Shown here piece after piece: positions 1-13,700 of a DNA stretch of 36,464 nucleotides. The notes under the pieces were generated by a model, which had not been told where the DNA came from, ran no database searches, and saw only the letters and a list, made by a program, of their open reading frames with translations. Source of the DNA: a virus (lineage: Duplodnaviria; Caudoviricetes); IMG/VR virus record IMGVR_UViG_3300020161_002501, positions 1 to 36,464 of that record. One strand, given 5' to 3'. A program made the position numbers and the translations under genes. How positions within the stretch are numbered: position 1 is the stretch's first letter; every line of letters begins with the position of its first letter.

Positions 1-1
1 C

Positions 2-211
2 CCCCTGCAGACCATCCTCTCTGCTGATCGCTACCCCTACGCTGTGGCGATGGTGAAGGACGGTAAGATCGCCTGCACCATGGCATACGCTGCCACCCTA
101 GAGGACTGCTACTTCCAGGTCCAGGGTTGGCGTGGTTGCTACAGCAGCGCCGCCTACATCATGGCAGAGCAGCGTGAGCGCAACGGCAAGTCCTACTGGG
201 TGGCGGTTTGA
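2..211 (+). CDS. 5'-truncated small hypothetical protein, first visible cassette of the GC-rich array
   Basis: Frame is open from the window edge (PLQTILSADRYPYAVAMVKDGKIACTMAYAATLEDCYFQVQGWRGCYSSAAYIMAEQRERNGKSYWVAV) to TGA 209-211. High GC3 codon usage; the stop is immediately followed by the cassette repeat. Confidence 0.7.
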   Translation, partial: PLQTILSADRYPYAVAMVKDGKIACTMAYAATLEDCYFQVQGWRGCYSSAAYIMAEQRERNGKSYWVAV

Positions 212-218
212 TCCGCCA

Positions 219-255
219 GGGGCACTTGACGGGTGCCCCACCCATCGTCTACAAT
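219..255 (+). promoter_or_regulatory. Hairpin-embedded sigma70-type promoter, copy 1
   Basis: Stem GGGGCAC(219-225)/GTGCCCC(233-239), loop TTGACGG; -35 TTGACG 226-231; -10 TACAAT 250-255 (18-nt spacer); ATG at 282. Confidence 0.8.
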
Positions 256-281
256 TCCAGAAGTTCACCACCCGAACCACC

Positions 282-521
282 ATGCGCCTCAAGCAAGTGA
301 CCACCACCAGCACCGAAGTGGAACTGGCAAACGGCACCTGTGTGCTATTCTCATACCAGACCCCCGTTGCCGCCCTGGTGCCTGGCAAGGGTTGGATCCG
401 CACCGCGACGAAGTGGAGCGTGACCACCAGCAAGCACATCAACCGCTGGCTGGCAGAGAACTGCGGTGGAGATGTTGCCACCGTGCCCCAGTGGGAACTG
501 GATCAACTGGTGGCGTTCTGA
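282..521 (+). CDS. Small hypothetical phage early protein (79 aa, MRLKQVTTTSTEVELANG...LFSYQTPVAA...SVTTSKHINRWL)
   Basis: ATG lies 26 nt after the -10 box. The ORF-track start at 132 runs through the promoter repeat and is unlikely. The SYxTPVA...SxTTSKHIN pattern looks like small phage proteins. Confidence 0.8.
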   Translation: MRLKQVTTTSTEVELANGTCVLFSYQTPVAALVPGKGWIRTATKWSVTTSKHINRWLAENCGGDVATVPQWELDQLVAF

Positions 522-528
522 TCCTCAC

Positions 529-565
529 GGGGGTGCTTGACAGGCACCCCCCGACCGACTACCAT
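529..565 (+). promoter_or_regulatory. Hairpin-embedded sigma70-type promoter, copy 2
   Basis: Stem GGGGGTGC(529-536)/GCACCCCC(544-551), loop TTGACAG; perfect -35 TTGACA 537-542; 17-nt spacer; -10 TACCAT 560-565. Confidence 0.85.
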
Positions 566-589
566 TAGCAAGCAACCGACCCACACCTC

Positions 590-784
590 ATGACCAACAC
601 CTTCTACGTTGCCTGCCCCGCCCTTGGTGAGGCAGAGACCGTGACCGACCTGGACCGTGCCATGGACCTGTGCTTCTCCATGCACGATGAGAGCGGCGAC
701 TATGCCTACATCCGCGACGCTGCTGGCGACATCGTGGGTGAGTATGGTGACGTTCTCCAGAGCATCGCTGACCTGCTGTTCTGA
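590..784 (+). CDS. Small acidic hypothetical protein (64 aa)
   Basis: ORF track; ATG 24 nt after the -10 box; ends in TGA followed by the cassette repeat. Confidence 0.8.
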   Translation: MTNTFYVACPALGEAETVTDLDRAMDLCFSMHDESGDYAYIRDAAGDIVGEYGDVLQSIADLLF

Positions 785-811
785 TCCTCACGGGGGGCGC
801 TCCTGCCCCCC
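778..811 (+). repeat. Cassette repeat with a hairpin but no -35 in the loop
   Basis: GTTCTGATCCTCACGGGGG at 778-796 is identical to 515-533. Stem GGGGGGC(792-798)/GCCCCCC(805-811), loop GCTCCT; no recognisable -10. Confidence 0.75.
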
Positions 812-838
812 TTCCTACACACCCCCAACCACACCCCC

Positions 839-997
839 ATGCGCTGCATCCTCCCTACTGCCTTCGCTGCCTTCGCCGTGCTGCTGGGCACCGCCACCCT
901 GCAACGGGCAGATGCCACGATCAACGTCTATCATGAGCAAACCGCCGAAGCACTCTGCAAGGCAGACCCTGCCTGGTGCGGTGACACCCGCCGCTGA
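839..997 (+). CDS. Small protein with a signal-peptide/TM-like N-terminus (52 aa)
   Basis: Translated by hand: MRCILPTAFAAFAVLLGTATLQRADATINVYHEQTAEALCKADPAWCGDTRR*. Below the ORF-track cutoff; C-rich leader like its neighbours. Confidence 0.65.
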   Translation: MRCILPTAFAAFAVLLGTATLQRADATINVYHEQTAEALCKADPAWCGDTRR

Positions 998-1008
998 TCG
1001 ACTATAAT
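978..1008 (+). promoter_or_regulatory. Degenerate cassette promoter overlapping the upstream ORF end
   Basis: Short stem GCGG/CCGC around TGACAC; GTGACA 981-986; perfect -10 TATAAT 1003-1008 in the shared CGACTAnAATTCCAGAG context; ATG 25 nt later. Confidence 0.6.
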
Positions 1009-1033
1009 TCCAGAGCACACCGCAAGGCACCCC

Positions 1034-1228
1034 ATGAACGGCATCCGCATCGGCACCCCCTACCAGGACGTGAGCCTCTCCTACTGCAGCGACGACAACA
1101 CCTACACCGAACACCCCATCACCCGCCTGGGTGTTGCCTGCCCCCTGGAGTGGGCACCACGCCCGCCCCAACCCGAAAGCATCATCGACCTGTGGCAGGA
1201 GATGTTCGGTGACTGCCCCATGCCCTGA
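1034..1228 (+). CDS. Small hypothetical protein (64 aa)
   Basis: ORF track; preceded by a -10 box and a C-rich leader; ends in TGA. Confidence 0.7.
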   Translation: MNGIRIGTPYQDVSLSYCSDDNTYTEHPITRLGVACPLEWAPRPPQPESIIDLWQEMFGDCPMP

Positions 1229-1234
1229 TAGAAT
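1226..1234 (+). promoter_or_regulatory. Extended -10 promoter (TGnTAGAAT) overlapping a stop codon
   Basis: TGA 1226-1228 followed by TAGAAT 1229-1234 and TCTC, as in the copy at 1735; ATG 22 nt downstream; no clear -35 or hairpin. Confidence 0.5.
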
Positions 1235-1256
1235 TCTCTCAACCGCAACCGATCCG

Positions 1257-1442
1257 ATGACCGTGATCCTCACCCCGATCAGCAGCAAGGCGAAGAACCG
1301 CCTGGCAAATCAGATGGCAGGCGACCCCGTGGTGGTGGTTGAGCAGCGCCAGGGCAACGACCTGTTCTGCGTGAGCAGCAACCGCACCTGGTGCGCCTGG
1401 GTCAACTGCCTCACCGACCCGAACTGGGCAGTTCGATTCTGA
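1257..1442 (+). CDS. Small hypothetical protein (61 aa, MTVILTPISSKAKNRLANQM...)
   Basis: In-frame ATG 1257 within ORF-track 1131..1442, positioned after the -10 box; ends in TGA plus repeat. Confidence 0.75.
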   Translation: MTVILTPISSKAKNRLANQMAGDPVVVVEQRQGNDLFCVSSNRTWCAWVNCLTDPNWAVRF

Positions 1443-1449
1443 TCTGCCA

Positions 1450-1484
1450 GGGGCACTTGACGGGTGCCCCCCATGCTGTAGAAT
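1450..1484 (+). promoter_or_regulatory. Hairpin-embedded sigma70-type promoter
   Basis: GGGGCAC-TTGACGG-GTGCCCC at 1450-1470 (1446-1470 is identical to 215-239); -10 TAGAAT 1479-1484; 16-nt spacer. Confidence 0.8.
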
Positions 1485-1510
1485 TCCAGAGCAAACCAAC
1501 GGAGCGCACC

Positions 1511-1696
1511 ATGCCCGCAACTGCCACCAAGACCTTCCGCTTCGACGCCACCTGGATCGGTGACGACGGCATCGAGTCTGAGATCCTCACCATTGAGGCA
1601 GCAACCCTTAAGGAGGCAACCGCTGCAGCAGTGGTTCAGATCAACGGGGTCAACTCCTTCGCGGATTGCCTGATCGACCTGCAGCGCCTCCGCTGA
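1511..1696 (+). CDS. Small hypothetical protein (61 aa, MPATATKTFRFDATW...)
   Basis: ATG 26 nt after the -10 box; GGAG at 1501-1504; ends in TGA plus repeat. Confidence 0.75.
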   Translation: MPATATKTFRFDATWIGDDGIESEILTIEAATLKEATAAAVVQINGVNSFADCLIDLQRLR

Positions 1697-1703
1697 CCCC
1701 TGC

Positions 1704-1740
1704 GGGGGCACTCACGGGTGCCCCCTCCATGCTGTAGAAT
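1704..1740 (+). promoter_or_regulatory. Hairpin cassette with a degenerate -35
   Basis: Stem GGGGGCAC(1704-1711)/GTGCCCCC(1718-1725), loop TCACGG; -10 TAGAAT 1735-1740. CCATGCTGTAGAATTC (1727-1742) is identical to 1471-1486. Confidence 0.7.
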
Positions 1741-1764
1741 TCTCAAGCACACCGCACCCGATCC

Positions 1765-1944
1765 ATGATCCTCTCTGCTGCCTCCCGCCTCTCTGATCGC
1801 CAGATGGTCTGGGTTGCCCGTAAAAACAACGTCGAATCGTTCAACCGCCTGACCACCGACTACGGGGTGCCTGCCACCGTATGGGCAGCGCAGTTCGCTG
1901 ATGTCCATGCCGCCGACGTGAAGGCGCCGACCTGGAGGGATTGA
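1765..1944 (+). CDS. Small hypothetical protein (59 aa)
   Basis: Translated by hand: MILSAASRLSDRQMVWVARKNNVESFNRLTTDYGVPATVWAAQFADVHAADVKAPTWRD*; ATG 24 nt after the -10 box. Confidence 0.7.
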   Translation: MILSAASRLSDRQMVWVARKNNVESFNRLTTDYGVPATVWAAQFADVHAADVKAPTWRD

Positions 1945-1969
1945 CTCCTGCCTCCTGATCGACTACCAT
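1934..1969 (+). promoter_or_regulatory. Hairpin-embedded promoter whose -35 contains the upstream stop codon
   Basis: Imperfect stem GGAGG(1934-1938)/CCTCC(1951-1955); TTGACT 1941-1946 includes TGA 1942-1944; 17-nt spacer; TACCAT 1964-1969. Confidence 0.75.
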
Positions 1970-1993
1970 TAGCAAGCAACCGCAACCGCCCAG

Positions 1994-2254
1994 ATGCTGA
2001 CCTCCATCATCCGCACCGCGATCCGCACCCGCCTGATCAAAGACGGCCCGATGACCTGCAGCGACCTGGTTCGCGCCATGGGCATGGACCCCCGCCGCCA
2101 CAAGGGCACCATCCACGCCCTCATGGTTGACATGGAGAAGGACGGCACTCTGGATGCTACCCGCTCCGACAGCGGCAAGCGCGACCTCTGGTTCATCGTG
2201 CCGACCGCGATCCGCAAGCGGGACCGCATCGCTGCTGCCATGGCAGGCATCTGA
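1994..2254 (+). CDS. Putative winged helix-turn-helix DNA-binding protein (86 aa)
   Basis: Pattern IRTRLIKDGPMTCSDLVRAMGM...TIHALMVDMEKDGTL...GKRDLWFI matches wHTH architecture (GPxTxxELxxxLG, recognition helix, wing ending in W), similar to the FaeA/PapI style. Confidence 0.65.
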   Translation: MLTSIIRTAIRTRLIKDGPMTCSDLVRAMGMDPRRHKGTIHALMVDMEKDGTLDATRSDSGKRDLWFIVPTAIRKRDRIAAAMAGI

Positions 2255-2263
2255 TCCGCCAGC

Positions 2264-2301
2264 GGGGGCGCTTGACGGGTGCCCCCTCCATCGACTACAA
2301 T
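2264..2301 (+). promoter_or_regulatory. Hairpin-embedded sigma70-type promoter
   Basis: Stem GGGGGCGC(2264-2271)/GTGCCCCC(2279-2286) with one G-T pair; loop TTGACGG; -10 TACAAT 2296-2301; 18-nt spacer. Confidence 0.8.
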
Positions 2302-2326
2302 TCCAAAGCAATCGACACCGCACCCC

Positions 2327-2590
2327 ATGACCACCACCGCTCCGATCTTCCGCCCCTTCACCACTGAGCAGAGCAGCGCCATCGCCAACATCGAAATCGA
2401 CGGCACCGCTGTGGAGGTGATCTTCCAGAGCAACGCCGACCGTGCCTACGGGTTCGATGCCACCCCTGCCTTCGCTGCCCGCCTGATCGAGGTGATCTCC
2501 TCCCCCGACCTGCTGGGCCTCTCCCTGGGGCGCCTGATCAGCGATGCCCGCCGCAGCGGCGACCTGCAGCAGATCGCTAGCGAGATCTGA
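2327..2590 (+). CDS. KTSC-domain-like small protein (87 aa)
   Basis: SSAIANIEID...VEVIFQSN..RAYGF...SLGRLI resembles the KTSC pattern (SSxIxxIxY..LxVxF.....YxY....SxGxxx); ATG 25 nt after the -10 box. Confidence 0.55.
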   Translation: MTTTAPIFRPFTTEQSSAIANIEIDGTAVEVIFQSNADRAYGFDATPAFAARLIEVISSPDLLGLSLGRLISDARRSGDLQQIASEI

Positions 2591-2597
2591 CCCCTAC

Positions 2598-2634
2598 GGG
2601 GCAGGTTGACGCCTGCCCCATCATCGACTACCAT
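2598..2634 (+). promoter_or_regulatory. Hairpin-embedded sigma70-type promoter
   Basis: Stem GGGGCAGG(2598-2605)/CCTGCCCC(2612-2619); the loop is exactly TTGACG; 17-nt spacer; TACCAT 2629-2634. Confidence 0.85.
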
Positions 2635-2658
2635 TAGCAAGCAACCGCACCGCACCCG

Positions 2659-2850
2659 ATGACCAGCACCACCATCGACGGCATCCAGTTCACCATCACC
2701 CGCCTGCCCGTGGCACACGGCACCCGTGCCAACCGCTGGGCGAACCAGATCAAGGGCGGCAGCACCCGCGTTCGCACCCACGGCGGAGCAGCAGGCAGCA
2801 GCGCCACCCGCATGAGTACCGCCAACAGCGCCCTGGGCGACGTGCAGTGA
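2659..2850 (+). CDS. Small basic hypothetical protein (63 aa), last cassette
   Basis: ORF track; ATG 24 nt after the -10 box; ends in TGA. Confidence 0.7.
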   Translation: MTSTTIDGIQFTITRLPVAHGTRANRWANQIKGGSTRVRTHGGAAGSSATRMSTANSALGDVQ

Positions 2851-2858
2851 CGGCAGCA

Positions 2859-2878
2859 GGGGGGCGGCAACGCCCCCT
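2859..2878 (+). terminator. GNRA-tetraloop hairpin closing the array (terminator-like, weak U-tract)
   Basis: GGGGGCG(2860-2866)-GCAA-CGCCCCC(2871-2877), just after the last ORF; followed by TCCGTTCGTTCG rather than poly-T. Confidence 0.5.
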
Positions 2879-2970
2879 CCGTTCGTTCGTGCGATACAGC
2901 AGTATAACGCTAGCGTGATGCCGTTCGTTCGTGTGAAACAGCAGTATTATCGTATAACGGTATCGTGATG
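2879..2970. repeat. Imperfect tandem direct repeat (2 copies, ~42-50 nt)
   Basis: CCGTTCGTTCGTGCGATACAGCAGTAT (2879-2905) vs CCGTTCGTTCGTGTGAAACAGCAGTAT (2921-2947); GTATAACGCTAGCGTGATG (2902-2920) vs GTATAACGGTATCGTGATG (2952-2970). Confidence 0.85.
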
Positions 2971-3029
2971 GCGGGCGCCGTGTGGCTAAAAACCGATGGA
3001 TCCCCCAATCTATAAAGTGTTACCCAAAC

Positions 3030-3116
3030 AAGACTTATAATTCTCTAAAGATAAAAAAAAATCCCCCCCCCATATAATAAGTCTTATAATTCCCGAAAGG
3101 TAAAAAAATTTTCCCC
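3030..3116. repeat. Imperfect AT-rich direct repeat (2 copies, period ~49 nt)
   Basis: AAGACTTATAATTCTCTAAAGATAAAAAAAAATCCCC (from 3030) vs AAGTCTTATAATTCCCGAAAGGTAAAAAAATTTTCCCC (from 3079). Confidence 0.75.
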
Positions 3117-3191
3117 ATAAAAATTCTTCAAATAAGTCGCACATAAATTTAAAATTTACTATATAAAACGAAATGTAAAGTAATGAATGGA

Positions 3192-3365
3192 ATGAAAAAA
3201 AATCTTGATGAAAATCGCCAGCTACTGCAAGTGGACCCAGTGAGTGGGGAATATTATGTGGTTATTCCCGAATGTATGGTAAATGAATTTTCGTGGTATG
3301 AAGACACTGAAATAATATTGAAAGTCGATGGAGATGAATTAATCTTGCACGAAAACAAAGATTGA
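3192..3365 (+). CDS. AbrB/MazE-like swapped-hairpin small protein
   Basis: GEYYVVIPECMVNEFSWYEDTEIILKVDGDELIL fits the AbrB pattern (V.IP..+...L.W..G..+.+.+....+.+). Start could be 3183 or 3192. Confidence 0.6.
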   Translation: MKKNLDENRQLLQVDPVSGEYYVVIPECMVNEFSWYEDTEIILKVDGDELILHENKD

Positions 3366-3371
3366 GACTGT

Positions 3372-3400
3372 TTGACTTTTTATACATAATACTGTATGAT
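3372..3400 (+). promoter_or_regulatory. sigma70-type promoter (no hairpin)
   Basis: TTGACT 3372-3377, 17-nt spacer, TATGAT 3395-3400; ATG at 3424. Confidence 0.7.
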
Positions 3401-3423
3401 ACTGAAGTAAAATTATTCCTATT

Positions 3424-4185
3424 ATGGCTAAAGGATTTACTGTAAAAGCAAAGACTCCACTTCCATCAAGCTCATCTGAACCAGAATTTGATTACGAAAA
3501 AGCCCGTGAAATTATTCGCGGAAAATCTATCGTTTTCTGTTTGCCTGGTAGAGGAGTTTCTTACACGTACTTAAAGAATTTCGTTCAGCTCTGCTTCGAT
3601 CTTGTGCAGAACGGGGCAAGCATTCAAATTTCACAAGATTACAGTTCCATGGTGAACTTTGCACGATGCAAGTGCCTTGGAGCAAATGTATTGAGAGGTC
3701 CCGATCAACTTCCATGGGACGGTAAGTTAAATTACGATTACCAACTTTGGATCGATTCGGATATTGTATTCAACACCGAATCATTTTACCGCCTTGTTCT
3801 GATGGACAAAGATATCGCAGCAGGTTGGTATTGCACTGAAGACGGTATGACTACTTCTGTTGCACACTGGTTGGACGAAGAAGATTTCCGTGGAAACGGT
3901 GGTGTCATGAACCACGAAACACTGGAAACAATCTCCAAGCGCCGCAAACCATTCACTGTTGATTACACTGGATTTGGTTGGTTACTGATTAAGAAAGGTG
4001 TATTTGAACACACTGAAATGAAGTATCCTTGGTTTGCACCTAAAATGCAAGTTTTTGAATCTGGAGAGGTTCAAGACATGTGTGGAGAAGATGTCAGTTT
4101 CTGTTTGGATGCAAAAGAAGCAGGATTTGAAATTTGGTGCGATCCTCGCATTAGAGTTGGTCACGAAAAAACAAGAGTTATTTGA
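3424..4185 (+). CDS. GT-A-fold (family 2-like) glycosyltransferase-like protein
   Basis: DxD motif WIDSDIVF; TGFGWLLIK; GEDVSFC; C-terminal VGHEK. These are typical GT-A motifs. Confidence 0.7.
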   Translation: MAKGFTVKAKTPLPSSSSEPEFDYEKAREIIRGKSIVFCLPGRGVSYTYLKNFVQLCFDLVQNGASIQISQDYSSMVNFARCKCLGANVLRGPDQLPWDGKLNYDYQLWIDSDIVFNTESFYRLVLMDKDIAAGWYCTEDGMTTSVAHWLDEEDFRGNGGVMNHETLETISKRRKPFTVDYTGFGWLLIKKGVFEHTEMKYPWFAPKMQVFESGEVQDMCGEDVSFCLDAKEAGFEIWCDPRIRVGHEKTRVI

Positions 4186-4355
4186 TGTCTAACAAATCTG
4201 TCGAAAGGTATAATATTCTCTGTAAAGGGCGTAAAATTTATACTAATCTTACAGAGGAAGAATATTTTCAAATCATGGAGGATCTGTCGATTCAATTTTA
4301 TCAGACAGGTTCTCCAAGTCCAGAAGAACTTGAAACTGAAATTATAGGAGAATAG
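4185..4355 (+). CDS. Small acidic hypothetical protein (56 aa)
   Basis: TGATG stop/start overlap; MSNKSVERYNILCKGRKIYTNLTEEEYFQIMEDLSIQFYQTGSPSPEELETEIIGE*. Confidence 0.75.
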   Translation: MSNKSVERYNILCKGRKIYTNLTEEEYFQIMEDLSIQFYQTGSPSPEELETEIIGE

Positions 4356-4357
4356 CA

Positions 4358-4510
4358 ATGGCAGCAAAGGCAAAAGGCGGACTGAATAAGCGTGAGTCTT
4401 ATATTCCTGGTCCTCCGAAGAAAACAAGGCAGGGAGCAGGCGATGGCACCAAGTATGCTGCGACGTCTCGCAACAAGGCTCGTAAACCCTATAGGGGACA
4501 GGGCAAGTAA
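4358..4510 (+). CDS. Small highly basic protein ending YRGQGK (50 aa)
   Basis: SD AGGAG upstream; MAAKAKGGLNKRESYIPGPPKKTRQGAGDGTKYAATSRNKARKPYRGQGK*. The YRGQG C-terminus recurs in small phage peptides. Confidence 0.8.
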   Translation: MAAKAKGGLNKRESYIPGPPKKTRQGAGDGTKYAATSRNKARKPYRGQGK

Positions 4511-4516
4511 TTAAAA

Positions 4517-4726
4517 ATGATACAATTAAATCCCACGATCCCAGTCATTACCCCTAAAGGTAGTGGTTGGGCGTTTTTTTTAATCGATAGATCTCAAGAG
4601 CATGACCTAGAATGGGTCGTTTTTCTCGATGAAGGAGGTATTTGTTGGACTTTTCGAAATAAAGACATTCGAATTCAAGAAAATGACACTTTTTCTCGAA
4701 AAAACATCTTGGATTTTCCGAAATAA
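4517..4726 (+). CDS. Hypothetical protein (69 aa)
   Basis: ORF track; tight packing with neighbours. Confidence 0.75.
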   Translation: MIQLNPTIPVITPKGSGWAFFLIDRSQEHDLEWVVFLDEGGICWTFRNKDIRIQENDTFSRKNILDFPK

Positions 4727-4765
4727 ATATATTTTTGCGATTTTTGTGCATTGGAACAGTTTTCG

Positions 4766-5092
4766 ATGGGTAATCACCTACTCCTAGAGGTGTATGATGT
4801 TGATTTTGAAGCGATTAACAACCTAGAAACGCTTCAAAATGCCATGATACGTGGTATTGAACGTGCAAACATGACTATTTTGAACATTTTTTCACACTGC
4901 TTCATTCCCCAAGGGTGTACAATAGTAATCGCACTTGCAGAAAGTCATGTCTCGTGTCATACTTGGCCAGAAAATGGATGTTTAGCAATAGATGTATACA
5001 CTTGCGGTGAAGGAAACCCCAAGTTAATAGCACTTGAGATGCTAAAATACCTAAATTCCGATAATTATAACTTAAGATACCTTTATCGTTAA
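4766..5092 (+). CDS. speD: S-adenosylmethionine decarboxylase proenzyme (class 1b, pyruvoyl-dependent) or a homologue
   Basis: MGNHLLLEVY...HCFIPQGCT...LAESHVSCHTWPENG...IDVYTCG contains the E-S-H self-cleavage site and the HTWPE motif. Alternative TTG start at 4751; TAAATA at 4724-4729. Confidence 0.9.
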   Translation: MGNHLLLEVYDVDFEAINNLETLQNAMIRGIERANMTILNIFSHCFIPQGCTIVIALAESHVSCHTWPENGCLAIDVYTCGEGNPKLIALEMLKYLNSDNYNLRYLYR

Positions 5093-5162
5093 ATAATGGT
5101 AGGGGAGATAGCAACCTCCTTCCAAAAAAAGTTCTGTTTTTAACAAAACAGGAGCTAAAATG
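5090..5162 (+). promoter_or_regulatory. Late-promoter-like TAAATA plus a structured leader with two hairpins
   Basis: TAAATA 5090-5095; hairpin 5098-5123 (GGGGAG/CTCCTT); hairpin CTGTTTT(5134-5140)/AAAACAG(5145-5151) overlapping the SD AGGAG. Confidence 0.5.
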
Positions 5163-5405
5163 GCAAATTTACCAGTAGATAGGGACAAAAACTACATGCA
5201 TCAAATGTGGGGAACCACAAGACTTGCTACAGATTATGGAGTTGTTGCCGAAAAAAAGAAAGTTATCCAAGAAATCATGCATGATGATGTTGAAAAAACT
5301 AAATTTAACTTATCTGAACAGTCTCACAAATCCATACGCAATGATAATGATTATGATGACTGGGATTATGGAACTGAACCTATCTACGGACGTCCTTGGT
5401 CCTAA
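5160..5405 (+). CDS. Hypothetical protein (81 aa, acidic C-terminus YDDWDYGTEP)
   Basis: ORF track; SD AGGAG at 5150-5154. Confidence 0.8.
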   Translation: MANLPVDRDKNYMHQMWGTTRLATDYGVVAEKKKVIQEIMHDDVEKTKFNLSEQSHKSIRNDNDYDDWDYGTEPIYGRPWS

Positions 5406-5413
5406 TATAAATA
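5406..5413 (+). promoter_or_regulatory. T4-type late promoter
   Basis: Exact TATAAATA, 27 nt upstream of the gp25 start. Confidence 0.8.
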
Positions 5414-5440
5414 AAAAAAAGTACATAACTTAATACGTTA

Positions 5441-5842
5441 ATGGCAATAACGAGAGTATCAAAAGGATTTAAGGATATCAGTTTGTCTTTTGACATGCAT
5501 CCGGTCACTAAAGATATTCTCGTTTTAACAAATGAAATTGCAATCAAAAAATCTATAAAAAATATCATTCAAACAATTCCATCTGAAAGATTTTTTAATC
5601 CTCTGTTTGGATCTCAAGTAAAACCTACTTTATTTGAATTTATAGATTTTGGTACTGCTTCGATATTAAAAAGTTACGTTGAACTAGCAATATCAAACTT
5701 TGAACCACGTGTTACTGATGTTGAAGTTGAAGTTACACCATATCCAGACTTAAATTCTTTTGAAATTATTGTATATTTTAGTATTATTGGTGAAAATACA
5801 CCAAAACAAACATTCACTTACATTTTAGAGGCAACTAGATAA
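5441..5842 (+). CDS. gp25: Baseplate wedge subunit, T4 gp25-like
   Basis: FKDISLSF..HPVTKD...AIKKSIKNII.T...ERFFNP.FGS...FEPRV motifs; position before gp6. Confidence 0.9.
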   Translation: MAITRVSKGFKDISLSFDMHPVTKDILVLTNEIAIKKSIKNIIQTIPSERFFNPLFGSQVKPTLFEFIDFGTASILKSYVELAISNFEPRVTDVEVEVTPYPDLNSFEIIVYFSIIGENTPKQTFTYILEATR

Positions 5843-5843
5843 A

Positions 5844-7724
5844 ATGCCTTTTACCAGATTTGCTAATCTAGATTTCGACGAAATCAGAACATCTATAAAA
5901 GATTATCTTAGATCAAATTCAAACTTCACCGATTTTGATTTTGAAGGATCTAATTTCTCGGTTTTAATAGATATTTTAGCATATAATACTTACATAACGG
6001 CATTCAATGCCAACATGGTTGTAAATGAATCGTTTTTAGATTCTGCAACAATTAGAGAAAATGTAGTTTCTTTAGCAAGAAACGTAGGTTATGTTCCTAG
6101 GTCGCGTAGATGTGCAAGAGCGACTATATCATTTAATGTCAATTTAGGAACCCCAGTTACTGCACCAACTCAACTTATTCTCAAATCAGGTTTAGTTTGT
6201 GTTGCACCAACTGATAACACTTCATACATATTTTCAATACCAGAAAATGTTATTACAACAGTTAATGCAGATTCTGCAGTAGCTTCTTTTGAAAACGTAG
6301 AAATTTATCAGGGAAATTTAATAACACAGCAGTTTGCAAATATTTCCACATCAAACTATAAATTTATTTTAAATAATGCAAATATTGACACTAGCACAAT
6401 TGTTGTTAAAGTGAATGGTGTTCAATATAAAATGATTGATAACATAACTGAAATTGATAGTACTTCTGAAATTTATTTAATTCAAGAAATAGAAGATAAT
6501 AGATATCAAGTAATATTTGGTGATGGCATTTTAGGTAAAAAATTACAAGGTGGAGCAACAGTAGATATTAGTTACATCATTACTGATGGAAAAGACGGAA
6601 ATGGTCCATCTTTATTTTCTTTTTCCGGAATTTTAACAAATAATTTAGATCAAATTCAAACTCCAGCATCACCAATTTCAATAATAACCGTATCTTCTGC
6701 TACTGGTGGTAATGATTTAGAAACAATTGATTCGATTAAATATTTTGCACCAAGACTATACTCTTCTCAATATAGAGCAGTTACTTCTGTTGATTATGAG
6801 TCAATAATTAAATATATCTATCCAGAAGCTGAGGCAGTAACTGTTATTGGTGGAGAAGTAATGGATCCTCCACAGTATGGTAATGTTTTTATAAGTATTA
6901 AACCAAAAGATTCATATAGATTATCAGATTTTACAAAGAGTGATATTCTTAAAAAAATAAAAAAATATGGAGTAATTGGAATAAATCACCAGATAATGGA
7001 TCTTAAGGTTCTTTATGTTGAAATTGACAGTTCAATCTATTATAATCCAAATAGAGTTTTAAATTCTTCAGTCTTAAAAGAAAAAATATTGACTTCATTA
7101 GAATCTTATGCAGAATCTATAAATTCTACAAAATCATCTGGAAGATTTAGATATAGTAAAGTTGTTCAATTAATTGATAACGTTGATTCTTCTATAACAT
7201 CCAATATTACTAAAGTTAAAATGAGACGTAATTTAAATTGCGTTTTAAATAATTTTGCACAATATGAATTATGTTTTGGAAATCAATTTCATAAAGAAAT
7301 TGGAAAATATAATATTAAAAGTACTGGATTTACTGTTTTAGGCGAAACTGGAACATGTTTCTTTGTTGATGTTGCGACTAATGATGATATCGGAGATTTA
7401 ACTATAGTTAAACCTCTTGAAGATTTAAAAACTTTCCAAATAGTTAAAAAATCAATAGGAACAGTTAATTATAAAACTGGTGAAATACTAATTAATACGA
7501 TCAACATTACGTCAACAAATTTAAATAATGGAGTAATAGAAGTTCAAGCATATCCAGAGTCTAACGATGTAATAGGACTAAAAGATTTATATGTTATTTT
7601 CGATGTTAATGCTAGTACAAGTAACATAAATATGCTAAGAGATACTATTGTTTCAGGTGAGCAAACTTCTGGAATTGATTTCCCAGTAACTTCAAGTTAT
7701 TCAAACGGCAAAATAACGAGGTAA
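5844..7724 (+). CDS. gp6: Baseplate wedge subunit, T4 gp6-like
   Basis: LDFDEIR...FTDFDFEGS...LAYNTY...ESFLDSA..RENVVSLAR..GY.P; FGDGILG; QYRAVT..DYE. Confidence 0.92.
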   Translation: MPFTRFANLDFDEIRTSIKDYLRSNSNFTDFDFEGSNFSVLIDILAYNTYITAFNANMVVNESFLDSATIRENVVSLARNVGYVPRSRRCARATISFNVNLGTPVTAPTQLILKSGLVCVAPTDNTSYIFSIPENVITTVNADSAVASFENVEIYQGNLITQQFANISTSNYKFILNNANIDTSTIVVKVNGVQYKMIDNITEIDSTSEIYLIQEIEDNRYQVIFGDGILGKKLQGGATVDISYIITDGKDGNGPSLFSFSGILTNNLDQIQTPASPISIITVSSATGGNDLETIDSIKYFAPRLYSSQYRAVTSVDYESIIKYIYPEAEAVTVIGGEVMDPPQYGNVFISIKPKDSYRLSDFTKSDILKKIKKYGVIGINHQIMDLKVLYVEIDSSIYYNPNRVLNSSVLKEKILTSLESYAESINSTKSSGRFRYSKVVQLIDNVDSSITSNITKVKMRRNLNCVLNNFAQYELCFGNQFHKEIGKYNIKSTGFTVLGETGTCFFVDVATNDDIGDLTIVKPLEDLKTFQIVKKSIGTVNYKTGEILINTINITSTNLNNGVIEVQAYPESNDVIGLKDLYVIFDVNASTSNINMLRDTIVSGEQTSGIDFPVTSSYSNGKITR

Positions 7725-7725
7725 T

Positions 7726-10700
7726 ATGATATCGACAAATTTTGAGAGCAGAATAAAAATAAATCAAATTATTGATAGTCAAATACCAGAATTTATTTTA
7801 GAAGAAAATCCTAAATTTCTAGAATTTTTGCGCCAATATTATGTCTCACAAGAATCTGAGGGAGCCCCTACAGATTTAATAGAAAATTTAGATCAATATT
7901 TAAATTTTGATTATTTGAACGATAAGATAGTTTCTAGTACAATTTATTTGTCGTCTAATATCACATCTAGTTCAAAATCAATTACGGTTTCATCGACAAA
8001 AGGATTTCCCAAAAAATATGGGTTATTAAAGATTGATGATGAAATAATAACTTACGAAAGTATTAATAATAATACATTTATAGGTTGTTCTCGTGGATTT
8101 TCAGCAATAACCTCATTTAATGATCCTCAAAATCCCGAAGAATTAATTTTTTCTTCCTCAAAAGCAAGTTCCCATAATTCTGGAGCAGATGTTACAAACT
8201 TAAGTTCATTATTTTTAAAAGAATTTTACAAAAAATTAAAGTATATTTTTGCTCCAGGATTTGAAGATTTTGAATTTTCTCCACAATTAAATATTAATAA
8301 TTTTATTTCAAAAATAAAATCTTTTTATCAATCGAAAGGTACAGACGAATCAATAAAAATTTTATTTAAAGTATTATATAATGAAACTCCAAAAATTATA
8401 AATCTTGAGAATTTTTTAATTAAACCTTCAGATGCGGAATATTTACGCAGAAGTGTAGTAGTATGTGATTTAATCACAAAAAATGCAGATCCCTTTAAAT
8501 TGGTCGGGCAACAAATAAAAAGTAACGATGGTACTTTTTCTGGACCAATATCGAAAGTAGATATATCAACAAAAAATAATAAAACTGTTTATAAAATTCA
8601 TTTATTTTATGGATATGGTGATGATGATTTAATTGAGGGTAATTTTGCAATTACACCAAAAACTAAAGTAACCGATTTTGTTCAAGCAGGATCTTCAACC
8701 ATTACAGTCGATTCTACCGTAGGATTTAAAAATTCTGGTAAATTTATTTGTGATGGGCAAGAAATTACATATCAGAGCAAAAGCGTTAATCAACTTTATG
8801 GATGTACTGGAATTTTAAAATCAATAAATTCAGGAAAAGATTTATACTTTAAAGACTCTGTAGTCTATGGGTATGAGAATGGAAATACTTCCAAAAAAGT
8901 AGAATTTATTGTTATCGGATCATTATATGATGTTGAAGGAATAGAAAATTTTAACTTATTAAGATCAAATGATTTAATTGATTTGGGAGAGTTTGGTAAT
9001 GATATTAGATTTGATGTGGAAAACAAATCTATTAAAGAATATGGATTTAATTCTTGGATTTATAATGTTAGATCTAGTTATGATGTCCAATATTTTAATT
9101 TAGGAAGCCCAATATTAAACACATATGAAGAAGCTCACCCCTCTAGTTTAAAGGTTAATGATACTGTTGATATTTTATTAAAAGAAACAGAAACTGCAGT
9201 TTTAACAAATGTTGTAGTAACTTCTATTTCTAAAACTCAAATAATTTTAAATACTCCAATAACTGGAATTTTACCACAACAAAAAATAGCAATAAGAAGA
9301 AAATATAATTATGCATCTAGTTCTATTGTACCATTAAAACATCAAAGTATATTAGCAAACGTACAAAATACTTATGTCTATGAAAATGACATGTATGTTG
9401 CCTCAAATTCGTTACCATCAAGACAAATAGTATTAGATATTAAGGAATCTTCAAAAACAATATCTAACGCTCAAGATGCAAATGAATTTTTTGATGGTAT
9501 TTTGGGTGGAAAGTATACTGTACTTTCTTTTACAACCGATGTTCCGTTTTTAACAGGAGATGTTATTAAATATTTCCATACAACATCCAATCCAATTAAT
9601 GGATTGCAAAATAATTCTGAATTTTATGTTGAAGTTTTACCTCAAAGAAATAAAATAAGGTTATATTCTGCAATTTCATTTTTGCCAGTACAAGATTTCT
9701 TAAGATTTGATAAAAATACTGAAATTGGTAAACATAGATTTGTTCTTGTCCAACACGCATCTCAAATTATAAGTCCAACGAATAATCTTAAAAGAATACC
9801 ATTAAACCAATCTTTTAATTTGGGTGAAGATGAAATAGTAACTGAACCAGGAGTAATAGGGGCATTAATTAATGGTGTGGATATTATAAATTATAAATCA
9901 ACGGATAAAGTTTATTATGGACCATTGGAAAAAATTGATGTTTCTAATCCTGGTTTTAATTATGACGTAATAAATCCACCAGAAGTCGTAGTCACATCAC
10001 CAAACACTGGCATTGGAACAACCGCAAAAGTAAAATTAATAGTGACTGGGGAATTCAAAGAGGTATTGGTAGATCCGCAACAATTTGGAGTTGAAAGAAT
10101 TATTTCCATTTCCGCAAAAGGTGGAAATGGCAAAAATGCGGTTTTTGAACCAATTGTCAAAAAACAATACAGGGAAATTAGTTTTAATGCCCAAACTTTA
10201 GATTTTGGCGGATCAATTGATTTTGTAAATGATTCTTTTACATTTAAAGAACCTCATGGATTAAATAATGGCCAAAAAATAGTTTATAATTCTAATGGCA
10301 ATTTGGGAATTGGTATTGGATCATTTGGGGGATCAAATTTAGATAGTGGAAAATATTTAATTAATGGTGGAATTTATTTTACAAAAGTTCTTAATTCTAA
10401 AAGTATTCAGATATTTTCAACTTCTTCAGATTTGAGTAGTGGAATTAATACTGTTGGAATAACAACAGTTAATACTTACGGAATTCATAAGTTTAGATTA
10501 TATGAACCTATTAAAGTGTTATCATATGTTAGAGTTGTTAATCCTGGTGAAGGATATTCTTATAAATCTTTAAATATCGAATCCTCTGGAATATCAACAC
10601 AAACGGGCACTATAACATTTAAAGAACATAAGTTTAATGATGGAGATTTAATTAATTATTCTTATGATCAGCAACCTATTGTTGGATTATCGTCAATAAA

Positions 10701-13700
10701 AAAATATTATGTTTTAAAGATTGATAATAACTCATTTCAATTATCTGACGGTGGTCCAATAAATGAAGATGAAACCAAATTAAGTAAATTAAATTACACT
10801 AAAAGAAATCCAATATCTATAAAATCAGTTGGTAATGGATATCACACATTTTCTTATCCAGAAATAACGGTAAAAGTAACAGCAGAATATAGTGGGATTA
10901 GTTCAGCAATACAATTAACTCCAGTGCTCAGGGGGAGTGTAACTGGTGCATACTTATATGATTCTGGATCAGACTATGGATCTACTGCACTTAATTTAAA
11001 TATTAAACCACTAATAAGCGTAAAAAAAGGTTCTGGTGCTCAACTAAAACCATTAATTTTTAATGGTAAAATAATATCTGTTCAAGTTCAAAATAAAGGA
11101 TCTAATTATAATAAATCTATAGATTTAGAAGTAATTGGTAATGGTCTAGGTTGCAAATTACGAGCAGTTGTAGTTGATGGTTTAATAGAATCTGTAGTAG
11201 TTTTAAATTCCGGGGTTGGATACGATGAAACTACAACTATTAATATATCTTCTCCCGGTCAAGGTGTTGTTTTAATCCCAACTGTAAGATCTTTAACAGT
11301 TAATGATTACTATAGATACCCTGGAGAATTTTATTTAGAAAATAAAGAAAAAACCGGATTAACTTATGGAGTAAATGGTTATTACTCTAATAGAGAAGGT
11401 GTAGAATTTGATGATCCTGACAAAAATATATTCCATTCTAGAATAATTGGATGGGCAAAAGATGGAAATCCAATATATGGACCATACGGATATACAGATC
11501 CTTTCAACTTCTCTTCGCAAGTTATTGCATTAAAAACTGGATATGAACTAAAACCATCAAAAATTAAAAATAGACCATCTTTAGATGTATTACCTGCTGG
11601 ATTTTTTATTGAAGATTATGAGTTTACTAATTCTGGAAATTTAGATGAGCATAATGGCAGATTTACTAAAACTCCCGAGTTTCCAAATGGAGTATATGCA
11701 TATTTTGCTAGTACAAAATTAGATATTGGGACAGCAGCTAAAACTGAAATAGTCCCAGAATTCCCATATTTTATTGGTAACTCTTTTAGATCTAAGCCAA
11801 CAGATAATTTTATTTTGGACCAAAACCTAGATTTAGATGATACAAAATTATTAAGAAACACTTTTCCATATAGAGTTAATAGAAAAAATTCTTCAAATTA
11901 CTTTTTACCAAAAAATTATGGTCTAAAGCAAAAATGTGAGATAAAATCTGTAGAAACAGGATCTATAGAAAATATAACGATCCAAACATCCGGAACTGGA
12001 TATAGTGTCGGTGATAGTATTATCTTTGATAATACCGATACTGGAGGATCCGGAGCTTCTGCTGCAATTTCTAATGTTTTTAATGGTGTAGATGTTGACT
12101 CAATAAAAACAACAGTTACAAAATATGATAATGTAGTATTTTTATGGGAAAATAATAATTCTATATTAGTATCTATTTTACCTTCTCATGATTTTTTAAA
12201 TCAAGACTATGTTGAAATTAGTGGTTTAAGTACATCATCGATAAAGGGATTAAATGGCAATCATCAAATAACTGTTGACGTTGGTTCTTCTATTTTATTA
12301 CGTGATTTAAGTTCAGCAAACGCAGTTGGAGTAATTACGGATATCTATTTGGATAAACCTCTACCAAATGTTAGTATTGGTAGTAGTGTGTTTATAGGAA
12401 GTGAAAAATTTATTGTTTTGAACGTTTTTGATGATAATATTTTAAGATGTCAACGCAATCAAACAGGAATATCACATACATCATCTTCAACAGTAACCGA
12501 AATACCTTCAAAGTTTAGAATAAATTTAAATACAGATAATTTTACTTCTAACGATAAATCAATAGTTTATTTTAACCCCCAACTGTCAATCGGAGTTGGA
12601 ACAGCAGATGGTCTTGATGTACTTTCTACACAATATTATGGAGATTTTATTAAAAAAGTTTCTATACCAACAAGATCATTATACTTACCGAATCATACTT
12701 TTGAAACAAATGATGTAGTTTCCTTGACGATAAGTCCTTCTGCGGGTAGTGCAACTATTACAGTTTCTAATTTACCTAATTCTAATCAGTTTTCTATTCC
12801 CGCAGAAACTAATGAGAGTATTCAATTATATGTAATTAAAAAATCAAAAGATTTTATTGGTATAGTAACTCAAGTTGGTTTAACTACAACATCCTCCGGA
12901 TTATATTTTATATCAAATGGTTCGAATAAGTATGACTATAAACTTGAAAAAGTAGAATCTTCTAATAAAGTTGTAACTGGAACTGCTGCAAAAATAAAAT
13001 CAGAAATCGTTACTTCTAATCCACATCAATTAAAAAATGGAGAAACTATCAACCTTGAAGTTATTCCAAAATTAAATTCAGGGGGAATAACCACATCATT
13101 ACCATTAAAAGTTAAATATAATGAAAATTATCATAAACTTTTAGTAGATCCGGTGTCTTTCAGTTCATCCGGTATAAACACATCAAAAAATACTATTGCG
13201 TTACCTTCTCACAAATTTTATACAGGACAAAAAGTTTTTTACAATACTACAAATTATGTTACTGGTGGAATTTCCACAGGTGTTTATTATATCCACAAAG
13301 TTGACAGTAATACTATTAATTTATGCGAAACATATTATGATTCAGTATCTTTCCCAGTTCAAGAAATAGATATAACAAATGTTGGTGGAAATGGACAAGA
13401 ATTATCTTTAGTAAATCCCCAATTAATATCAATAAAGAATAATAATCTATCTTTTAATCTTTCAGATTCTTCACTTTCTGGATATAAACTCAATATTTTT
13501 TATGATAAAAAATTCAACAAAAACTTTGTTTCTACTGGTTCAACCTCAAAATTTAATGTAGAAACTTCCGGTGTTACAGGTGTTAATGGATCTCTTACAA
13601 TTAATTATGACTCTTCCATTCCACCACTATATTACACACTAACTAAAAATGGATACTCAATATTTTCAAACGAAAATGAAAATGATTACCAAATAATTTT

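What the first reader, a model, noticed from the sequence alone, without database searches (positions are those of the whole stretch)
201..2878. Array of one-gene cassettes, most driven by a promoter whose -35 box sits in the loop of a GC-rich hairpin
Seen: 11 small ORFs separated by a recurring unit of TGA, ~7 nt, a GC stem with TTGACN(N) loop, a -10 box (TACAAT, TACCAT, TAGAAT or TATAAT) and 22-26 nt to the ATG. Clear copies are at 219, 529, 1450, 1704, 1934, 2264 and 2598; degenerate ones are at 792, 978 and 1226. Known: T4-like phages carry host-sigma70 early promoters, and RB49-type phages have repeated promoter/stem-loop (PeSL) cassettes linked to gene shuffling. Inference: this is a related but architecturally distinct system in which the -35 is enclosed by the stem, giving nearly every accessory gene its own structure-gated promoter. 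It is the best candidate for an undescribed system in this window.
Basis: partly seen in the sequence, partly recalled or inferred. Interest (0 to 1): 0.9.

Follow-up and report, generated by a model that had tools for sequence, protein, structure and literature searches.

The report
Shuffling hairpin-promoter gene cassettes, cyanophage
A virus of cyanobacteria carries a GC-rich row of 11 tiny genes joined by a repeated hairpin-plus-promoter linker at which relatives have lost and reordered single genes, as in the known 'PeSL' cassettes of T4-type phages; the -35 box sits in the hairpin loop likely through tight packing, not as a structural gate.

Summary
The array is real: 11 small ORFs in a 61-65% GC island of a ~30% GC T4-like cyanophage contig. 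The repeated linker runs stop, hairpin, -10, then ATG 22-26 nt later. TTGAC lies in a good stem loop at 5 of 10 junctions and imperfectly at 1934; the 'clear' copy at 1704 has none. Stems covary across relatives and S-PM2 has the same unit. The gating idea is not supported. The hairpin keeps its place in linkers without TTGAC (88 of 143, against 97 of 137 with it), and these often use an extended -10 or an upstream motif instead. The same -35-in-loop layout occurs elsewhere in these genomes as ordinary U-tailed terminators. The PeSL paper already lists stems overlapping the -35. Relatives lose and reorder single genes at the linkers. Verdict: a cyanophage variant of PeSL cassettes, GC-rich and lacking the AT-rich upstream tract, Shine-Dalgarno and U-tract. 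This scan has reported the same system before in at least six other genomes. An open lead is that the array may be the terminally redundant, first-entering DNA. No transcription data were available.

The parts
1..2878 (+). GC-rich cassette array (right part; contig starts inside it), 11 small ORFs with GC3 0.73-0.90
209..281 (+). linker: stop, stem 219-225/233-239 round TTGACG 226, 18-nt spacer, TACAAT 250, ATG 282
282..521 (+). g2, 79 aa, phrog_5643 (unknown function)
519..589 (+). linker: stem 529-536/544-551 round TTGACA 537, 17-nt spacer, TACCAT 560
590..784 (+). g3, 64 aa, phrog_25733; DNA homologues in S-RSM4, S-WAM2, S-H9-1
782..838 (+). linker with hairpin only (792-811), no -35 and no clear -10
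839..997 (+). g4, 52 aa, no family
978..1033 (+). GTGACA-16-TATAAT promoter with a small stem inside the end of g4
1034..1228 (+). g5, 64 aa, no family
1226..1256 (+). minimal linker: stop TGA forming TGn, then TAGAAT; no hairpin, no -35
1257..1442 (+). g6, 61 aa, phrog_1653
1440..1510 (+). linker: stem 1450-1456/1464-1470 round TTGACG 1457, 16-nt spacer, TAGAAT 1479; left end of the one-cassette deletion seen in run X3
1511..1696 (+). g7, 61 aa; absent from a ~96% identical relative, joint inside the 3' arms of the flanking stems
1694..1764 (+). linker: 8-bp stem 1704-1711/1718-1725 with loop TCACGG (no TTGAC), TAGAAT 1735
1765..1944 (+). g8, 59 aa, no family
1934..1993 (+). linker: imperfect stem, TTGACT 1941 contains g8's stop, 17-nt spacer, TACCAT 1964
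1994..2254 (+). g9, 86 aa, virus-only cluster; winged-helix-like lead only (MarR_2 and DsrD clusters at 0.92)
2252..2326 (+). linker: stem 2264-2271/2279-2286 with one G.T pair round TTGACG 2272, 18-nt spacer, TACAAT 2296
2327..2590 (+). g10, 87 aa, phrog_4357; weak KTSC-like lead (0.81, family on 19% of that cluster)
2588..2658 (+). linker: perfect 8-bp stem 2598-2605/2612-2619 round TTGACG 2606, 17-nt spacer, TACCAT 2629
2659..2850 (+). g11, 63 aa, no family
2859..2878 (+). last hairpin of the array, GCAA tetraloop, no promoter
2880..3130 (.). conserved right-boundary element (TTCGTG..GCAGT, AAAA.CCAT GG[AG]TCCC..CTAYAAA at 2998, then A-tracts) where GC drops abruptly

Best explanation
This is a row of one-gene cassettes in a T4-like cyanophage, joined by a repeated ~70-base linker (stop codon, GC hairpin, host-type promoter boxes, short A/C-rich leader) at which relatives have lost and reordered single genes; the hairpin likely folds in the upstream gene's RNA as a weak stop or 3'-end cap, and the -35 likely sits in its loop through tight packing. 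Steps: (1) Shown: linker anatomy, covarying stems, gene loss and reordering at linkers. (2) Inferred: host sigma70 polymerase starts each gene from its own promoter, which comes in three exclusive types: TTGAC plus -10, TGn-extended -10, or an upstream TG(G/T)(C)CAC motif plus -10. (3) Inferred: the hairpin descends from the terminator-over-promoter composite found elsewhere in these genomes. The arms fill the free positions before the -35 and in the 17-nt spacer, so the fixed hexamer must be the loop. The array copies have lost the U-tract and would pause, weakly terminate or protect 3' ends while allowing read-through. (4) Inferred: general phage recombination between near-identical linkers deletes, inserts and reorders cassettes; no dedicated recombinase was found. 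(5) Inferred: GC3 of 0.73-0.90 fits translation by a GC-rich picocyanobacterial host early in infection.
For: Covariation: perfect stems of 7 bp or more in 31 of 85 units picked without reference to the stem, against 10% (max 19% in 500) when arms are swapped between units; double changes G-C/C-G, A-T/G-C, C-G/A-T. Promoter logic: TGn in 6 of 137 units with TTGAC against 57 of 146 without; upstream motif in 1 of 137, 2 of 57 and 42 of 86 of the three classes (motif chosen after seeing sequences). Hairpin independent of -35: 97/137, 34/57, 54/86, mostly 8-11 nt before the -10 and a median 7-10 nt after a stop (A vs B+C p=0.13); 36 of 150 post-stop hairpins contain TTGAC. Terminator ancestry: in two near-complete records 8 of 89 promoter-like sites outside the island have the enclosing stem and 7 of those 8 a U-tract; inside, 9 of 9 have the stem and 0 of 9 a U-tract (p=0.0004). 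U-tailed composites occur in S-RSM4, P-SSM2, S-SRM01 and S-T4. Sense-strand folding: G.T 19 vs A.C 1 in 76 cores; 43 vs 9, or 27 vs 7 of 68 clusters, although A exceeds T on this strand. Shuffling: one contig in run X3 covers 2-1467 then 1721-1899, dropping exactly g7 with the joint in the stems' 3' arms; further one-cassette skips in X5 and X7; 24 arrangements in relatives, with neighbours such as g2-g6, g1-g6, g9-g11, g6-g4, g6-g3. No integrase, Y1 transposase or RT in 0 of 5 records, 3 of them 90% complete or more.
Against: No start sites, 3' ends or reporter data; the one RNA run (X20) is contigs of other strains and cannot show ends. No U-tract (4 T or fewer in 8 nt after all 185 stems), so termination is doubtful. 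The G.T:A.C ratio does not differ from chance hairpins inside coding DNA (43:9 vs 11:4, p=0.47); only the G.T share of all mismatches does (43/73 vs 11/53, p=2e-5). A sense-strand DNA hairpin would show the same bias. Units are related, so counts overstate independent events. Non-coding parts of the island are GC-rich too, which codon adaptation alone does not explain. Joints come from assembled contigs, not reads.
Confidence: 0.65

Rival explanations
1. The hairpin is mainly a DNA recombination or template-switch signal on the sense strand, and any RNA effect is secondary.
For: The X3 joint lies inside the 3' arms. U-tracts are absent. G.T pairs are tolerated in DNA hairpins too. Cassette edges are fixed at the stop codon.
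Against: Other joints fall in the -10 and leader part of the linker (1758->1986 in X7), as plain homology would give. No integrase, Y1 transposase or RT in 5 records. The same fold serves as an evident terminator elsewhere in these genomes.
Confidence: 0.13
2. The stems are decayed terminators kept alike only by copying among linkers (gene conversion, palindrome correction), with little present function.
For: U-tract lost in 9 of 9 island copies; about a third of units have no good stem; identical linker variants recur across phages.
Against: Many different arm sequences stay paired, G.T dominates mismatches, and hairpins persist after stops where no promoter was seen by eye (S-SRM01).
Confidence: 0.12
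3. One reading: the stem extrudes in DNA (cruciform or single strand) and gates access to the looped -35.
For: TTGAC is at the symmetry centre in most class A units; 8-bp perfect stems are common; such units lie nearest the right boundary (median 905 nt vs about 3000).
Against: Same stem, same place without TTGAC. 40 of 137 TTGAC promoters have no good stem. G.T pairs become A.C mismatches on the other strand of a cruciform. U-tailed versions exist. T4-type DNA enters double-stranded, and 7-9 bp arms with 6-7 nt loops extrude poorly (own knowledge).
Confidence: 0.07

Closest known systems
PeSL (promoter-early stem-loop) cassettes of RB49/phi1, T4/PST, KVP40/nt-1 (PMC2839356: passages and section 14 read; PMC4122927: parts 1-2 of 3 read)
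   Same: Repeated intergenic sigma70-type promoter plus polyG/polyC stem between small ORFans; stems may overlap the -35; indels and swaps at the repeats.
   Different: Cyanophage host; GC-rich island with no AT-rich upstream tract; Shine-Dalgarno-like motif in 1 of 9 leaders; stem at one fixed place and covarying; three alternating promoter types; mini-circles and terminator activity not shown here.
Terminator-over-promoter composites in core regions of cultured cyanomyoviruses (S-RSM4, P-SSM2, S-SRM01, S-T4)
   Same: GC stem with TTGAC in the loop, -10 at 16-18 nt.
   Different: They carry a U-tract in the spacer and are scattered single sites; array copies lack the tract and repeat at nearly every gene.
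Early-gene regulatory element of Syn9/P-TIM40 (Doron et al. 2016; recalled, paper not held)
   Same: A non-sigma70 upstream motif plus -10 drives small early genes (recalled); class C units in relatives may be this element.
   Different: Could not compare sequences. The window's linkers lack the class C motif and use TTGAC or TGn, which by the recalled scheme could be middle-type promoters.
Hairpin or single-strand promoters (N4 virion RNA polymerase promoters, plasmid Frpo; recalled; plasmid leading-region preprint 10.1101/2025.04.03.647016, abstract only)
   Same: Hairpin tied to a promoter; host-adapted codons in first-expressed small genes.
   Different: Here the boxes are ordinary duplex sigma70 elements and the stem persists without the -35; no single-stranded entry is known for T4-type phages (own knowledge).
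T5 first-step-transfer region and SPO1 host-takeover module (recalled)
   Same: Dense small genes with strong host promoters, bounded by A-tract-rich elements.
   Different: Those lie in proven terminal repeats; here genome ends are not established.

Membership tests
PeSL | sigma70-like -35/-10 before small ORFs | tested here: met
   (sequence only)
PeSL | GC stem-loop at or overlapping the promoter | tested here: met
   overlap with -35 is a listed subclass
PeSL | dense in a hyperplastic region of a T4-type genome | tested here: met
PeSL | indels or exchanges with joints in the repeat | tested here: met
   (contigs, not reads)
PeSL | AT-rich tract upstream of the -35 | tested here: not met
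   upstream is the stop codon and the G-rich arm
PeSL | Shine-Dalgarno before the ATG | tested here: not met
   SD-like in 1 of 9 leaders
PeSL | promoter and terminator activity | not testable with these tools
   no raw RNA reads
PeSL | mini-circle formation | tested here: inconclusive
   'goes back' joints have short sides or fit paralogues and other gene orders
intrinsic terminator | GC stem followed by a U-tract | tested here: not met
   no tract in array copies; met for copies outside the array
structure-gated (cruciform or ssDNA) promoter | stem obligatorily tied to the promoter element it gates | tested here: not met
structure-gated (cruciform or ssDNA) promoter | activity depends on extrusion | not testable with these tools
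   needs in vitro transcription
integron cassette array | tyrosine integrase in the genome | tested here: not met
   0 of 5 related records, 3 of them 90% complete or more; the window's own contig is a 36-kb fragment and was not searched
Syn9-type early element (Doron 2016) | published motif upstream of the -10 | not testable with these tools
   paper not held; class C motif absent from the window's linkers by eye
terminal-repeat pre-early module (T5, SPO1) | lies in a fixed terminal repeat with about double read depth in virion DNA | tested here: inconclusive

The most novel reading that the evidence does not exclude
The array is the terminally redundant, first-entering segment of T4-like cyanophage genomes: a T5/SPO1-style host-takeover module with fixed boundary signals, host-like codons rising toward its right edge, promoter types ordered along it, and U-less hairpins that let each incoming gene fire from its own promoter while serving as swap joints. 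Hints: PMC4503421 reports 2-3x read depth just downstream of the S-PM2 ORFanage and reads it as terminal redundancy; the S-PM2 array, about 4 kb further on, spans about 5.9 kb, about 3% of the genome (figure not seen). The RN05-S record opens within the right-boundary element. 17 of 21 long contigs end within 10 kb upstream of the next conserved gene, against 1 downstream.
Probability: 0.2. Interest if true: 0.7.

Novelty: new variant of a known kind. Interest (0 to 1): 0.36.

Why it matters
It extends PeSL-type modular shuffling to cyanophages. The only paper found that weighs PeSLs in a cyanophage (PMC4503421) judged them too sparse at a neighbouring S-PM2 region. It marks a compact, host-adapted set of likely early genes in abundant viruses of picocyanobacteria, and the exact unit exists in culturable S-PM2 (record LN828717, stem 12495-12518), so promoter, terminator and gating claims can be tested directly. 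If the array proved to be a fixed terminal module, the assumption that these phages are simply circularly permuted like T4 would need revising.

Tried and rejected
Rfam scan of 1-6000 at E up to 1: nothing. Structured ncRNA at the right boundary: the alifold consensus of 58 copies was empty on both strands. Integrase, Y1 transposase and RT searches: 0 of 5 records. Stable RNA tetraloops as a hallmark: 5 GNRA and 0 UNCG among 26 four-base loops, too few to use. G.T:A.C ratio as proof of RNA folding: not different from the in-gene control. Contig depth as a test of a terminal repeat: X3 50-57 in the array vs 22.5 beyond, but X1 and X2 only about 1.1-1.3 times, and the tool warns depth is no copy number. 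Record ends of isolates: RN05-S at the right boundary, S-8S53 in repeats left of the array, S-H9-1 mid-gene in the array, S-SCSM1 at a gene start upstream, S-T4 10 kb upstream; mixed. Contig breaks also follow from strain diversity. Mini-circles: back-joints are not decisive. Pfam gave no hit over cut-off for the 11 cassette proteins. Runs X11-X20 held small shares and say nothing of habitat. Dropped rows: 3 of 283 units (coding false hits in the downstream gene or too near a locus end). Literature: ten searches found no paper describing this array's linker; Doron 2016 and subscription papers were not searchable, so prior description cannot be excluded. No supplements were read.
Full report
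Setting. The window is a whole 36,464-base virus contig. Downstream of the finding lie a 253-aa gene about 85% identical to genes of S-SRM01 and P-SSM2, an S-adenosylmethionine decarboxylase and baseplate gp25, then a gp6-sized ORF in the order seen in S-RSM4 and S-SRM01. It is therefore a T4-like cyanophage. Bases 1-3000 are 61-65% GC against 26-39% elsewhere. The 11 cassette genes have GC3 0.73-0.90, three structural genes 0.12-0.15.

Observation. The ORFs and linkers are present. The linker pattern gives 7 matches at 5 sites against 0.05 expected. Four of 6 promoter-like sites in 1-3000 have a perfect enclosing stem, against 0 of 19 in the rest of the contig. The -10 to ATG distance is 22-26 nt in 9 of 9, with an A/C-rich leader and an SD-like motif in only 1. 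Of 10 junctions, five have TTGAC in a good loop (219, 529, 1450, 2264, 2598) and one imperfectly (1934). 1704 has stem and -10 only, 792 a stem only, 978 a promoter with a small stem inside the coding end, and 1226 only TGn plus -10. No Rfam family matches.

Relatives. One search kept the best 80 of 599 confirmed loci (the scan stopped after 9 of 64 parts). Many show a GC peak just upstream of the 253-aa gene that fades leftwards. L022 shows a full array of about 8 kb. Cultured phages have the syntenic array: S-RSM4, S-WAM2, S-SRM01, S-PM2. S-PM2 holds a perfect 9-bp stem round TTGACG with a 17-nt spacer and TATACT. The GC peak in 500-nt bins is 46% in the Prochlorococcus phage P-SSM2 and 52-60% in six Synechococcus phages. 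In two near-complete uncultured records it is the only GC island.

Is the stem selected? I collected units by TTGAC, spacer and the -10 plus leader only. Of 85 distinct units, 31 have a perfect stem of 7 bp or more; swapping arms between units gives 10% (max 19% in 500), and arms differ by paired double changes. So the fold is kept, though the units are related and not independent. Mismatches on the sense strand favour G.T: 19 vs 1 A.C in 76 cores, and 43 vs 9 in 148 post-stop hairpins or 27 vs 7 of 68 clusters, although this strand has more A than T. Against this, chance hairpins inside genes give 11:4, not significantly different; only the G.T share of all mismatches is higher (p=2e-5). This is moderate support for sense-strand folding and cannot separate RNA from single-stranded DNA.

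Is it a gate on the -35? Among 283 units picked on the -10 and leader alone, TGn occurs in 6 of 137 with TTGAC and 57 of 146 without. An upstream TG(G/T)(C)CAC motif, chosen after seeing the sequences, occurs in 1 of 137, 2 of 57 and 42 of 86 units of the TTGAC, TGn and neither classes. This complementarity is what working sigma70-type promoters would show. The hairpin, however, is present in 97/137, 34/57 and 54/86 (280 units after dropping 3), mostly 8-11 nt before the -10 and with 7 nt the commonest stop-to-stem distance in the first two classes (p=0.13 for A vs the rest). Only 36 of 150 post-stop hairpins contain TTGAC. With an 8-bp arm and 9 further bases making a 17-nt spacer, a -35 can only fall in the loop. 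The same layout occurs outside the array as ordinary terminators. In G002 and G004, 8 of 89 outside sites have the enclosing stem and 7 of the 8 a U-tract, while 9 of 9 island sites have the stem and none a tract. Four of five cultured phages show U-tailed examples. None of 185 array stems has more than 4 T in the next 8 nt.

Shuffling. A 1649-nt contig from another study (run X3) follows 2-1467 and then 1721-1899, dropping exactly g7, with the joint in the shared 3' arms. X7 skips g8 and X5 skips g9 at linkers. Among fetched loci, 24 distinct arrangements carry three or more homologues of window genes, often 85-98% identical, with new neighbours and reversed orders; none matches the window's full order. 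No integrase, Y1 transposase or reverse transcriptase was found in five related records, so general recombination between linkers is the likely engine. Mini-circles were not shown.

Comparison with print. Arbiol 2010 (PMC2839356; passages, section 14) defines five PeSL subclasses including stems overlapping the -35, and shows promoter activity, reduced read-through for one stem, and mini-circles. Comeau 2014 (PMC4122927; parts 1-2 of 3) extends this to PST and nt-1. Puxty 2015 (PMC4503421; parts 2-3 of 4 and passages; figures not seen) found PeSL-like sites too sparse at the S-PM2 ORFanage, a region upstream of this array, and reports 2-3x read depth just downstream of it. PMC3152331 (passages) argues that phage tRNAs serve AT-rich codons and cites a proposal that early expression uses unmodified host polymerase, which fits GC-rich codons in early genes. 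PMC5780444, PMC10452541 and PMC1524935 (passages) did not give the cyanophage early motif or this layout; PMC8707807 and 10.1101/2025.04.03.647016 were seen as abstracts. Doron 2016, T5, SPO1, N4 and Frpo are recalled. The element works like a PeSL and meets its positional and recombination features, but fails two listed ones (AT-rich upstream tract, Shine-Dalgarno), so I file it as a variant, not a plain member.

Earlier scan notes. Several follow-ups on other genomes reached the same PeSL-like reading. I had that reading before looking and do not count them as evidence.

Open lead. The array ends at a conserved non-coding element (58 distinct copies; also in P-SSM2) where GC falls from 63% to 30%. 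GC3 rises toward it (0.63 to 0.76, rho -0.29, n=217). With the S-PM2 depth report, the RN05-S record break there and 17 of 21 long contigs ending upstream against 1 downstream, a terminal, first-entering module is possible. Other isolate ends and contig depths are mixed, and strain diversity explains contig breaks, so I give it 0.2.

Verdict. Real feature, new variant of a known kind, gating unlikely (0.07), interest 0.36.

Noticed in passing
window 2880-3130; L001 ~10071, L002 ~10433, L224 ~15540-15680: Conserved non-coding right-boundary element at the sharp GC drop, in 58 distinct copies including marine phages; no consensus RNA fold. Candidate packaging, end or origin signal.
   Followed up: partly
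L001 6460-6870, L002 6590-6970, L224 9700-10090: A matching left-boundary region with A/T-tract repeats and a shared TTGGCTTAGC-like motif precedes the array in S-RSM4, S-WAM2 and S-PM2.
   Followed up: no
L022 480-1020 and 2490-2610; L087 7570-7750 and 12900-13010; L227 5830-6120: Clusters of short dispersed repeats (ACGAGAT, CTCGACGAG, CTGCGCG types) at the left part of the arrays; possible binding sites or modification targets.
   Followed up: no
L225 end and L226 start (RN05-S, PV261924.1): The isolate's record opens and closes with a 77-nt overlap lying exactly in the right-boundary element.
   Followed up: partly
window 2591-2601 and 1697-1707: A small alternative hairpin CCCC-TAC/TGC-GGGG shares its G run with the main stem's 5' arm; on the other strand its loop is GNA.
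   Followed up: no
window 1993-2308, run X5 contig 17: One contig reads end of g9, linker, 301 other letters, start of g9: a two-gene circle, tandem copy or g9 paralogue.
   Followed up: partly
window 7726-20445 and 22050-29135: Very large ORFs (4239 and 2361 aa) in the baseplate and tail region, about 28% GC.
   Followed up: no
window 3183-3365, 3424-4185, 4751-5092: 60-aa AbrB/MazE-like ORF (below cut-off), conserved glycosyltransferase-like gene and S-adenosylmethionine decarboxylase directly after the boundary.
   Followed up: partly
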